DNA of 64,000 bases from Haliotis cracherodii (taxonomy: Eukaryota), in assembly GCF_022045235.1 (NCBI RefSeq), contig NW_027266275.1:61070001-61134000 (forward strand), in the 5' to 3' direction. The stretch's first letter is position 1. The number at the start of each line of letters is the position of its first letter. Positions 2,059 to 49,181 of the stretch are shown one piece after another. Position numbers and translations under genes: made by a program. Below the pieces are notes generated by a model that saw nothing but the letters and a program-made list of their open reading frames with translations, was not told the origin of the DNA and did no database searches.

Positions 2059-3089
2059 TCATTCCATTCCAATCCATTTGGGGTAAAAAAAACTTGAATA
2101 GTCACTACTAAACAATTTTCGTAATTCAGATCCTTCTCTTGCTGGGTATTTATAATACACAACAGTACCATTGTTTAGAAATCCAGACCACCATCCATAC
2201 GTCCCGACAGTTTGAATCAAATGGTCACATCTCGCCATAATGGCCATATCTGCTATCGCTGTACCTCCAGTCACATGTATGACGCTACCGTCCTTCAGAA
2301 GATCCTTTATGAATACAGCGGAAGTAGTGGCAAGGACGAAAGTCACGTGACTGTACCTCAAGCGGAAGTACTCCATTGCACGTTGAATATATTCCACTGG
2401 GGCAAGCTGATAACCAAAATCTTTAAAATGTTTCTCCACAAAGTCCCCTCTTCTGTAGTGAATGCCGACTAAGGTGGCACTCACGTTGGCTGACAATGAC
2501 CTTTCCTCACGAATCTTATTAAGAATACCATCAGCCGATGCTTTTGTAGAATCTGTGAAATCAAATTGACTCCGGATTTTGTTCTCGACGTGAGAGAAGT
2601 ATCGCCATGATTGCAAATACCGTTCTATCATGACATTTCCGTTTGAGTCGAACTTGGTCAATGCTTGGTCGAAGTCACACGAACTTTTTTCGACCAGTTT
2701 CAAATAACCGCTTAGCGACTGAATCTTCATACTTTTCGCGTCCAATTTGAAATGTTTCACCAGCGGGTTGCTTTCATCAATGACAACACTCATATTCTTT
2801 CCCGACGCAATACCATAAATAGATGCATAAGTAAACATCGCGTTTCCAAGGCGACCAGATTCTATGCATATAATGAAATGTTTGTTTCGGTTTTCCGATA
2901 AACTGTCAGACGGTTTTTTATTCAGGTTGTGGCTCGGCGTTCCTATATTTGTCTGCTGATTCTCCTCGCCGCCATCTTTGATGACGGACTTCGAAGGTTC
3001 AGCGACTGTTGGTAGATGACTTGACACGTGGAATCCGTACACCACTATGGTGGCAATACCAAGTAGGACCATATATTTTAGTTTTCGAT
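2059..3089 (-). CDS. Alpha-1,2-fucosyltransferase (GT11, FUT1/FUT2/Sec1-like), copy 1, main coding exon
   Basis: Intact 337-aa ORF (2059-3072) with an N-terminal hydrophobic anchor, a stem, and GT11 motifs GRLGNxMF, YLQSWRYF, HYRRGD, DMAIMARCDHLI and GTYGWW. Splice acceptor ttttgtttcag lies just upstream of 3089. Confidence 0.93.
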
Positions 3090-4239
3090 CTGAAACAAAA
3101 ATATATTATTGAGTGAGGTATTCGTCTTTTCTTCATGGTTTCTGCAATATGACGCCATGGATGGACATCGTCCGTCAATTGAACTACAGTAGTTTCGACA
3201 AAATTTGAACTTGAAATCTGGTGGTTTTAGTGGGGCAGAAAGGTCCTGGCTCTATCGTACCATGTCCGATGTCCTATAAACTATATAAACTTGCTTCGGA
3301 CTGTTGAAAAACAAATGGATTGTCTGTCACAAAAATTACATTGTCAAATAGTATATGAAATTGACGATCCCTAAATGGGGGCACTCCACGAGTAGTTTAA
3401 AAAAGCAATATATACAGTTGTCCGAAGAAATTACTTCTAAATTCATTTGTACAGAAGACTGATAGCCATGAAACTAATGTAGAAAATATATTTACCTCTT
3501 TTAAAAACATGCTTCCAAAAGACATCCTGACAGAACATCTTGCATACAGGATTCACGTCCACAGTATCCCAAACCTTTCCAGATGCACCTGTGGATCATC
3601 ATAAAACAATATAGTTTTAAAATCGGAGTTGAAAAGAATTGTACTAGCTAAAAGCGGCATAAAGCCATACTCAAACACTTTTACTAAGGCCAGTATTTCG
3701 ACTGCTGCTAATGCGCGGTGTTGGGCAACAAACAATTACTGTTTTATACAAATTGTGTAAGTGGCGGGTGCTACCGGTAGGGCAGGTAATGCTTACCCTT
3801 TTCGCGAACAGCTTGTGTCATCAGTGATCAAAGCATATAATTTTCACCACAATATGGCCCTCTACGATCAAATGAATATATTTCGTAGGATAATCGAGAC
3901 TGGTTATTCTCTGGCGTTGATGTTCTATATCATAATTATCCATCTTCAGCCTTTATATCCATTATTCACATCTCACATAATTTACTATCCTTAACTATTT
4001 AACTGATAGTAGTGTATGGTATACAAACAACACACACTTTAGTGTTGTTTTCAACCACAGCCAGACATATCCAACCTATCTCACTCCGGCTTGTAAATAG
4101 TCCCTTCTGGCCCAGACAAACCATTGGTGGATATTTTGAGAATATTTCATCGAGATACCACAAAAAAATGATATAACTGAGTACACTGATGTGGCGGAGC
4201 AGTTGGCCTGGGAGACATTTCATCTACCTATCTACCTTT

Positions 4240-4545
4240 CTACATCTATCTGTCGATAGATATAGAGAATTCAAAAATTACTATTACAATAATTAGAATA
4301 CAGCTACTATAATTAACTATTGAACCAATAGTGGAGTATAGTATACACAACACACACTATATAACATAATAGTATAAATCTATCTATCTATCTATCTATC
4401 TGTCTATCTATCTATATATAGAGAGAATACAAATGTTACTATTACTATAAATAGAATACAGCTACTATAATTAACTATTTAACTAATAGTGGAGTATAGT
4501 ATACACACAACACAAACTTTATATAACATAATATTATAATTAACT
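4240..4545. repeat. (CTAT)n microsatellites and local duplication of an AT-rich block of about 150 bp
   Basis: The block agagaat..aaa.ttactatta...gaatacagctactataattaactatt..a..aatagtggagtatagtatacac occurs twice. Confidence 0.7.
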
Positions 4546-48000: not shown

Positions 48001-48150
48001 TCAGAGATCTTGCTCTCTAAGAATGTTTATGAATACCCACCTCGACCGCCAGATCCATTTAATCCAATCAAACGACGAACATAGATTGCCGGAAACCTAT
48101 AGCACATAGAATCCCACAAGTTGAAACACCTGATGAAAATAGCTCCCCGT

Positions 48151-49181
48151 TCATTCAATTCCAGTCCATTTGGGGTAAAAAAAACTTGAATAGTCACTAC
48201 TAAACAATTTTCGTAATACAGATCCTTCTCTTGCTGGGTATTTATAATACACAACAGTACCATTGTTTAGAAATCCAGACCACCATCCATACGTCCCGGT
48301 AGTTTGAATCAAATGATCACATCTCGCCATAATGGCCATATCTGCTATCGCTGTACCTCCAGTCACATGTATGACGCTACCGTCCTTCAGAAGATCCTTT
48401 AAGAAGTCAGGGGACTCAGTTGCAAGGACGAAAGTCACGTGACTGTACCTCGAGCGGAAGTACTCCATTGCACGTTTAATGTATTCCACTGGGGCAAGCT
48501 GATAACCAAAATCTTGGTAATATTTCGCGACTAAGTCCCCTCTTCTGTAATGGATGCCGACTAAGGTGGCACTCGCGTTGGCTGTCAATGACCTTTCATC
48601 ACGAATCTTATTAAGAATACCATCTGCCAATGCTTTTGTAGAATCTGAGAAAACAAATTGACTCCGGATTTTGTCCTCGACGTGAGGGAAGTATCGCCAT
48701 GACTGCAAATAACGTTCTATCCTGACATTTCTATTTGAGTCGAACTTGGTCAATGCTTGGTCGAAGTCACACGGACGTTTTTCGACCAATTTCAAATGAC
48801 CGCTCAGTGACTGAATCTTCATAATTGTCGCGTCCAATGTGAAATGTTTCACCAGCGGGTTGCTTTCATCAATGGCAACACTCATATTCTTTCTCGACGC
48901 AATACCATAAATAGATGCATAAGTAAACATCAGGTTTCCAAGGCGACCAGATTCCATACATATGATGAAATGTTTGTTTCGGTTTTCCGAAATACTGTTA
49001 GACGGGGTTTTATTCAGGTTTTGGCTCGGCGTTCCTATAGTTGTCTGCTGATTCTCCTCGCCGCCATCTTTGATAACGGACTTCGAAGGTTCTACGACTG
49101 TTGGTAGATGACTTGACACGTGGAATCCGTACACCACTATGGAGGCAATACCAAGTAGAACCATATATATTAGTTTTCGAT
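48151..49181 (-). CDS. Alpha-1,2-fucosyltransferase (GT11), copy 3, main coding exon
   Basis: Same motifs, intact, with the acceptor ttttgtttcag conserved. Confidence 0.93.

What the first reader, a model, noticed from the sequence alone, without database searches (positions are those of the whole stretch)
2059..49181. Expanding alpha-1,2-fucosyltransferase cluster with replacements concentrated at catalytic motifs
Seen: copies 1 and 2 differ by about 40 aa against only about 16 purely synonymous codon changes (manual count), with no indels or stops. Multi-nucleotide changes cluster at GNAMF/GNLMF, RRGDFVEKHFK/RRGDLVAKYYQ, ATTSAVFI/ATESPDFL, EKSSC/EKRPC and QTVGT/QTTGT. Known: GT11 enzymes build H-type antigens, and HxRRxD binds GDP-fucose. 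Inference: diversifying or relaxed selection on acceptor specificity. This could be an invertebrate histo-blood-group-like polymorphism of mucus or surface glycans, relevant to pathogen binding or recognition.
Basis: partly seen in the sequence, partly recalled or inferred. Interest (0 to 1): 0.7.

Follow-up and report, generated by a model that had tools for sequence, protein, structure and literature searches.

The report
Fast-evolving abalone fucosyltransferase gene copy
This is an ordinary tandem cluster of abalone sugar-adding (fucosyltransferase-family) genes in which one gene type has changed several times faster than its sister, partly in a loop beside the intact catalytic core, which likely retunes the sugars it acts on but could equally reflect relaxed selection.

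Summary
The counts are right: three intact GT11 genes, and copies 1 and 2 differ at 40 amino acids and 16 synonymous-only codons. That gives dN/dS 0.60, not above 1. A fourth copy lies about 9.6 kb before the window. Copy 1 is identical to a protein annotated in Haliotis cracherodii and keeps the ancestral states. Copies 2 and 3 are a derived 'B' type also found in H. rufescens. B evolved faster (24 vs 4 replacements, P=0.0002; branch omega about 1.1 vs 0.5, P=0.10). 'Concentrated at catalytic motifs' is only half true: 0 of 28 near-invariant family positions changed, and the four motifs are not enriched (5 vs 4.6 expected). The real cluster is the loop after HxRRGD, which in FUT8 shapes the donor and acceptor sites. 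A branch-site test (P=0.01) loses significance when double-nucleotide mutations are allowed (P=0.13). Copy 2 is a 25-kb unequal-crossover product, 1.45% from its twin segment, so a recent copy-number variant or a haplotype artefact. No null alleles were seen in four runs. Verdict: a new member of a known pattern (like FUT1/FUT2/Sec1); retuned specificity is plausible but unproven.

The parts
2059..3089 (-). c1 (A type, ancestral states) main coding exon; GT11 catalytic domain, stem and transmembrane stretch
   Evidence: Pfam PF01531 105.5 bits vs cut-off 23.9; 100% to P0001; GT-AG intron boundary
3496..3538 (-). c1 first coding exon (coding part); 406-nt GT-AG intron to the main exon; spliced protein 357 aa
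4622..29596 (.). first copy of the recently duplicated segment (c1 upstream DNA, LINE remnants, satellites, and a B-type gene)
   Evidence: self-BLAST; pooled divergence from second copy 270 of 18,647 = 1.45%
26953..27983 (-). c2 (B type, derived) main coding exon
   Evidence: PF01531 100.8 bits; matches annotated P0020 over this exon
27316..27336 (-). c2 loop after HxRRGD (codons 211-217, LVAKYYQ vs FVEKHFK): the one significant cluster of replacements
   Evidence: aligned to FUT8 loop 365-378
27217..27219 (-). c2 codon 250 in motif II (ACT to GAG, three bases); Val in H. rufescens B, so changed more than once
28498..28591 (-). c2 first coding exon (ATG at 28540; AG acceptor upstream implies a further 5' non-coding exon)
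   Evidence: spliced contig skipping 27983-28498 in run X12 of organism C
29597..29673 (.). approximate unequal-crossover point: left of it unit 2 follows the c3 unit, right of it the c1 unit
   Evidence: three-way alignment of the units
29597..50807 (.). second copy of the recently duplicated segment
48151..49181 (-). c3 (B type) main coding exon; 4 amino-acid and 3 synonymous differences from c2
   Evidence: PF01531 97.3 bits
49700..49742 (-). c3 first coding exon (coding part); 518-nt GT-AG intron

Best explanation
The window holds three of four tandem GT11 fucosyltransferase-family genes of an abalone, and the derived B type (copies 2 and 3) kept every near-invariant family residue while changing faster than its sister, most densely in the loop after HxRRGD, so it likely remains an active Golgi fucosyltransferase with a shifted acceptor preference or kinetics. 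Shown: gene anatomy, family and fold, ancestral versus derived states, the rate asymmetry, avoidance of the conserved core, the loop cluster, and the crossover that made copy 2 from B coding DNA plus c1 upstream DNA. Inferred: duplication of the c1 lineage before black and red abalone split; escape of B from the gene conversion that evens out the two A copies; a burst of partly adaptive change on the rim of the cleft (loop 211-217, residue 78 of motif IV, 250 of motif II, 289 of motif III); activity as an alpha-1,2-fucosyltransferase; any effect on mucus or surface glycans.
For: A states shared by c1, c0, H. rufescens, H. rubra and H. asinina proteins; B states shared by c2, c3 and two H. rufescens proteins (B clade 100/100). 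Relative rate 24 vs 4 with H. rubra (P=0.0002), 18 vs 3 with H. asinina (P=0.0015). Purifying selection persists: 0 of 28 and 2 of 59 conserved columns changed; frames intact in both species. B-stem changes fall in motifs plus loop 8 of 19 times (3.4 expected, P=0.009), while A-type differences between species avoid that region (1 of 33, 3 of 45). The model (pLDDT 95) matches clade-1 GT-B fucosyltransferases (NodZ Z 15.4, rmsd 3.3, 221 aligned; POFUT1, AtFUT1, FUT8). The loop aligns to FUT8 365-378, which helps form both donor and acceptor sites (PMC7033129, passage). Codon 250 reads Thr, Val and Glu in different copies. B-type contigs occur in run X12 of organism C, which covers exons but not the intron and holds a spliced contig (RNA is the tool's guess).
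Against: Pairwise omega 0.60. B-branch omega 1.08 does not differ from 1 (P=0.83) nor significantly from the A branches (P=0.10); M1a vs M2a P=0.12. Branch-site P=0.011-0.019 falls to 0.13 with double mutations, 0.16 without codon 250, 0.17 without codons 78 and 289. The loop was picked after seeing the data, is variable across the family (2.6-3.7 bits at the five changed sites) and also differs in c0 (3 of 20 changes). Non-synonymous divergence (5.9%) is about that of all collinear non-coding blocks (320 of 6,051 = 5.3%). Other young GT11 pairs in this genome also show raised ratios (0.49; 0 synonymous to 4 non-synonymous). DNA was available for one species only, and c0 is an imperfect outgroup because c0 and c1 look gene-converted.
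Confidence: 0.5

Rival explanations
1. Relaxed constraint: B is a redundant young duplicate drifting at tolerant positions, with the same activity as A; the loop cluster and multi-base codons are chance plus multinucleotide mutation.
For: Branch omega 1.08, not different from 1; signal lost under a double-mutation model; changes sit at variable columns (3.24 vs 2.26 bits, P=6e-7); adjacent mismatches are also in excess in non-coding DNA (12 vs 6.8 expected); young pairs elsewhere in the genome show raised ratios.
Against: Core residues are still spared, so an average omega near 1 implies some sites above 1; B-stem loop cluster scan P=0.003-0.009; repeated change at codon 250; B kept intact in two species.
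Confidence: 0.37
2. B (or the whole Haliotis clade) is a weak or inactive paralogue kept for a regulatory role, like rabbit Sec1, which dampens Fut1; or the clade uses another donor or linkage.
For: All A-type copies lack the family's Asp/Asn at 250 (109 of 123 homologues) and all copies lack Trp254 (117 of 123); the clade sits on a long branch (1.03 changes per column); Sec1 precedent (PMC4398370, abstract).
Against: HxRRGD, Asp275, GRLGN, YLQSW and GTYGWW are intact in all copies; c2 and c3 regain an acidic residue at 250; A types are conserved across four Haliotis species.
Confidence: 0.1
3. On copy number only (independent of the above): copy 2 is not a fixed gene but a recent copy-number variant or an uncollapsed second haplotype, so the cluster is three genes (c0, c1, B) in most animals.
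For: The two segment copies differ by 1.45%, close to a published heterozygosity of 1.56% for this species (PMC9709981, passage). Four same-species runs show different mixes of c2 and c3 letters.
Against: The junction lies exactly in A/B paralogous homology, as unequal crossover predicts; H. rufescens also has two annotated B proteins on one contig. Contigs collapse variants and their depth is no copy number, so the run data cannot decide.
Confidence: 0.5

Closest known systems
Oyster GT11 enzymes CgFUT2 and CgFUT1 (PMC11522050, parts 2-3 of 6 read; PMC10217650, search listing only)
   Same: Mollusc GT11, about 350 aa type II protein, HxRRGD donor motif; CgFUT2 makes alpha-1,2-fucosylated terminal galactose.
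   Different: The abalone clade has HYRRGD and a remodelled motif II (ATTSAxF / ATESPDF instead of S-D/N...W); no activity is known; direct sequence comparison with CgFUT2 was not run.
Mammalian FUT1-FUT2-Sec1 cluster, rabbit Sec1 (PMC4398370, abstract)
   Same: Tandem GT11 paralogues from successive duplications, gene conversion among them, one paralogue diverging in function.
   Different: There activity, expression polymorphism and a virus phenotype are measured; here none is. Independent origin in abalone.
Daphnia Pasteuria Resistance Complex (PMC11500718, abstract)
   Same: Invertebrate fucosyltransferase genes under duplication and loss, proposed to shape pathogen attachment.
   Different: That region is mapped to resistance, under balancing selection and hyper-divergent; this one is a four-gene collinear array with no phenotype; the FuT family there was not checked against GT11.
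FUT8, POFUT1, NodZ, Arabidopsis FUT1 (clade-1 GT-B fucosyltransferases)
   Same: Fold, H-x-R-x2-D motif and guanine-binding Asp (PMC12717137, section 11 part 1 and section 16 read).
   Different: 12-18% identity; FUT8's catalytic Glu373 position is not conserved in GT11 (column 215 is variable), so the loop's role is by analogy only.

Membership tests
GT11 (PF01531) | Pfam Glyco_transf_11 score above the curated cut-off | tested here: met
   105.5, 100.8, 97.3 bits vs 23.9
GT11 (PF01531) | Clade-1 GT-B fucosyltransferase fold | tested here: met
   c1 model pLDDT 95.3; top matches AtFUT1, FUT8, NodZ, POFUT1/2. c2 was not folded.
GT11 (PF01531) | Motif I H-x-R-R-x-D (GDP-fucose binding) | tested here: met
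   HYRRGD in all four copies
GT11 (PF01531) | Motifs III and IV, and the conserved Asp before motif III | tested here: met
   GTYGWW, GRLGN and Asp275 unchanged; that Asp275 equals FUT8 Asp453 rests on the alignment plus recalled numbering
GT11 (PF01531) | Motif II consensus S/T-D/N...W | tested here: inconclusive
   Strand and Phe245 kept, but Thr/Glu/Val at 250 (family D or N in 109 of 123) and Phe254 (family W in 117 of 123)
GT11 (PF01531) | Type II membrane topology | tested here: inconclusive
   Short basic N-terminus then a hydrophobic run, seen by eye in the spliced protein; no predictor run
GT11 (PF01531) | Alpha-1,2 transfer of fucose to terminal galactose | not testable with these tools
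   needs an assay
Positively selected (neofunctionalised) paralogue | Lineage-specific rate acceleration | tested here: met
   24 vs 4, P=0.0002
Positively selected (neofunctionalised) paralogue | A site class with omega above 1, robust to multinucleotide mutation | tested here: inconclusive
   P=0.011 standard, P=0.13 with double mutations; four sequences only
Histo-blood-group-like polymorphism (FUT2 type) | Segregating null or functionally distinct alleles | tested here: inconclusive
   No nonsense or indel among 16 variant places in 4 runs; contigs drop rare variants
Histo-blood-group-like polymorphism (FUT2 type) | Glycan phenotype differing between individuals and tied to pathogen binding | not testable with these tools
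   no phenotype data

The most novel reading that the evidence does not exclude
The B type is an adaptively retuned glycan-capping enzyme of one abalone lineage, and the recent crossover put its coding sequence under c1's promoter as a segregating copy-number variant, giving black abalone a blood-group-like mucus glycan polymorphism that alters pathogen attachment.
Probability: 0.08. Interest if true: 0.7.

Novelty: new member of a known kind. Interest (0 to 1): 0.3.

Why it matters
As it stands it is a tidy, ordinary case of asymmetric evolution after tandem duplication in a family with at least 31 loci in this genome. Its use is practical: no GT11 structure turned up in the PDB sequence searches, and the A/B pair, 88% identical in the catalytic domain, is a natural experiment that points at a few residues that may set acceptor preference. 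If the copy number or type were tied to mucus glycans and disease resistance in an endangered abalone, it would be an invertebrate parallel of FUT2/Sec1; nothing here shows that.

Tried and rejected
Pairwise dN/dS above 1: rejected (0.60). Enrichment inside the four motifs: not found under a uniform null. Branch-site and site tests: not robust. Coding divergence above flank divergence looked significant with seven long blocks (173 of 4,426 = 3.9%), but those blocks are the best-conserved ones; all 11 collinear blocks give 5.3%, so I dropped this argument. B features by conversion from a distant paralogue: none of the 19 other genome paralogues aligned carries the B loop or motif II. Sequence searches of solved structures found no GT11 entry (NodZ and FUT8 only at E 0.09 and 0.45). 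A 3D clustering test was not possible: model coordinates are not returned. Sequencing-run search: no RNA holder listed. The same-species RNA-guess run X21 gave only thin pieces with 3-12 differences, which says nothing on B expression. Contig depths are no copy number and were not used as evidence. Search for shorter homologues of c2 found none at E 1e-15 among 23 candidates. Earlier notes of this scan: nothing relevant. No complex prediction was sent; no binding claim is made.

Full report
Numbering: residues count from the Met at window 3072 (337-aa ORF); add 20 for the spliced 357-aa protein. c1, c2, c3 are the window copies; c0 lies before the window.

1. Observation. c1 vs c2: 40 amino-acid differences, 16 synonymous-only codons, 8 multi-base codons, no indels or stops; c2 vs c3: 4 and 3. 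With 793 non-synonymous and 218 synonymous sites this is dN 0.059, dS 0.098, omega 0.60. Each gene has a short upstream coding exon and a GT-AG intron (406, 514, 518 nt), giving 357-aa proteins.

2. Context. The genome search gave 38 matches, which I count as 31 distinct loci (a lower bound), including c0 about 9.6 kb before the window; no fifth copy lies within 40 kb before or 20 kb after the window. c1 is 100% identical to P0001, labelled Haliotis cracherodii. That record and P0002, P0020, P0021 lie on a contig as long as the window's contig, so they are not independent evidence. Homologues labelled H. rufescens, H. rubra and H. asinina fix the polarity: GNAMF, KHFK, ATTSA and TVGT are ancestral (A type), and c2, c3 plus two H. 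rufescens proteins form a derived B clade (100/100). So A and B are paralogues older than the black/red abalone split. c0 and c1 are identical over codons 70-131, and the two H. rufescens A proteins share their own changes at 137-163, which suggests gene conversion among A copies (inferred).

3. The third copy. Window 4,622-29,596 is repeated as 29,597-50,807. A three-way alignment shows unit 2 following the c3 unit up to about 29.6 kb and the c1 unit beyond it, the signature of unequal crossover in A/B homology. The two segments differ at 270 of 18,647 aligned bases, 1.45%, near a published heterozygosity of 1.56% for the species (PMC9709981, passage only). A recent crossover between homologues and an uncollapsed haplotype both fit. 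Four same-species runs show different mixes of c2 and c3 letters, but contigs collapse variants. B-type DNA extends only about 1 kb above c2's first coding exon, which starts at an AG acceptor; if the promoter lies further up, c2 would use c1's promoter (untested).

4. Where the changes fall. Against 123 homologues, 0 of 33 catalytic-domain changes hit the 28 columns at least 90% conserved and 2 hit the 59 columns at least 70% conserved; changed columns are more variable than unchanged ones (3.24 vs 2.26 bits, P=6e-7). The x of GNxMF is one of the family's variable sites (Gln 39, Leu 24, His 11 of 123). The four motifs (names from PMC8439653, passages; boundaries set by me) hold 5 changes vs 4.6 expected. 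The loop after HxRRGD holds 5 in 7 residues; a scan that corrects for choosing the window gives P=0.053 for all changes, 0.003-0.009 for the 19 B-stem changes, and 0.12-0.21 with 15-residue windows. A-type differences between species avoid motifs plus loop (1 of 33, 3 of 45), whereas 8 of 19 B-stem changes fall there. c0 also differs in this loop (3 of 20).

5. Selection. B carries 24 changes to c1's 4 (H. rubra outgroup, P=0.0002) and the H. rufescens pair gives 24 to 5. My own codon models on the four genome copies (279 codons) give omega 1.08 for B and 0.48 for A branches (difference P=0.10; B vs 1, P=0.83), M1a vs M2a P=0.12, and branch-site P=0.011-0.019 driven by codons 78, 250 and 289. 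All three are multi-base codons, a known source of false positives (10.1101/165969, search listing and abstract start). Allowing adjacent double mutations gives P=0.13; dropping codon 250, or 78 and 289, gives 0.16 and 0.17. Codon 250 is Thr in A, Val in H. rufescens B and Glu in c2/c3, so it changed in at least two steps. Non-synonymous divergence (5.9%) roughly equals collinear non-coding divergence (5.3%). Selection is suggested, not shown.

6. Structure and mechanism. The c1 model (pLDDT 95.3) matches NodZ, POFUT1, Arabidopsis FUT1, POFUT2 and FUT8 (Z 15.4-12.6). The family profile aligns HxRRGD and the next residues to FUT8's HVRRTD loop, and motif II to its ATDD, at weak E-values. In FUT8, loop 365-378 orders on ligand binding and helps form both sites, and Thr408 and Asp453 hold the guanosine (PMC7033129, passage; PMC12717137 section 11 part 1 and section 16). 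By analogy, B's changes at 211-217 and 250 line the cleft while the donor-binding core is intact. The whole Haliotis clade already departs from the motif II consensus, so even A-type activity needs an assay.

7. Expression and variation. In run X12 (organism C; RNA is the tool's guess) contigs cover both exons but not the intron, one skips 27,983-28,498, and some keep B letters at codon 78 (40 of 160 variant rows shown). The spliced contig itself does not tell c1 from B. No evidence bears on B expression in the window's own species. In four same-species DNA-guess runs no indel or nonsense change was listed; 14 of 16 variant places match a letter of c0, c1 or c3, so they may be paralogue mixing or conversion.

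8. Known comparisons and novelty. Oyster CgFUT2 is a characterised mollusc GT11 (PMC11522050, parts 2-3 of 6). Tandem GT11 paralogues with conversion and functional divergence are known from mammals (PMC4398370, abstract), and fucosyltransferase turnover at a resistance locus from Daphnia (PMC11500718, abstract). Two searches of the held library (16 of 17 and 20 of 21 papers listed, titles and abstract starts only) showed no paper on this abalone cluster; subscription journals and supplements were not seen. Verdict: a real but ordinary asymmetric duplicate, new member of a known kind, interest 0.3.

Noticed in passing
G000:C12:61060441-61061256 (L002), about 9.6 kb before the window: Fourth copy c0, A type, with a different stem and two upstream exons; loop reads YDLKHFK; looks gene-converted with c1.
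   Followed up: yes
window 2311-2331 and equivalents in all copies: The whole Haliotis clade has a remodelled motif II (no Asp/Asn250 in A types, Phe for Trp254) and a long stem branch (1.03); donor or activity may differ from typical GT11.
   Followed up: partly
window 27126-27273, run X14 (organism D): One of two contigs keeps c2 letters at codon 255 and at the first base of codon 250, while this run reads A type at codons 78 and 213; the motif II change may be older than the other B changes. Phase unknown, 120 rows hidden.
   Followed up: no
window 14171-18438 and 39304-39936: The same 52-bp GC-rich tandem array has 82 copies in one segment copy and 12 in the other, despite 1.45% divergence; it makes the spurious 1,461-aa ORF at 14093-18478.
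   Followed up: partly
window 23101-23829 and 44468-45040: A second, unrelated-looking 52-bp tandem array (14 and 11 copies).
   Followed up: no
window 20585-20935, 41828-42178, 57275-58216, 61169-61666: Reverse-transcriptase (RVT_1) fragments and a MULE transposase fragment between and after the genes.
   Followed up: partly
L006, L008, L009, L007, L015, L016 (G000:C52): Another GT11 cluster on contig C52; L008 and L009 differ by 4 non-synonymous and 0 synonymous changes; L015 and L016 look like identical two-exon genes 64 kb apart.
   Followed up: partly
L013 (G000:C6:24408356) and L022 (G000:C3:6731174): GT11 paralogues with an altered donor motif (HVRQGD, HIRHGD).
   Followed up: no
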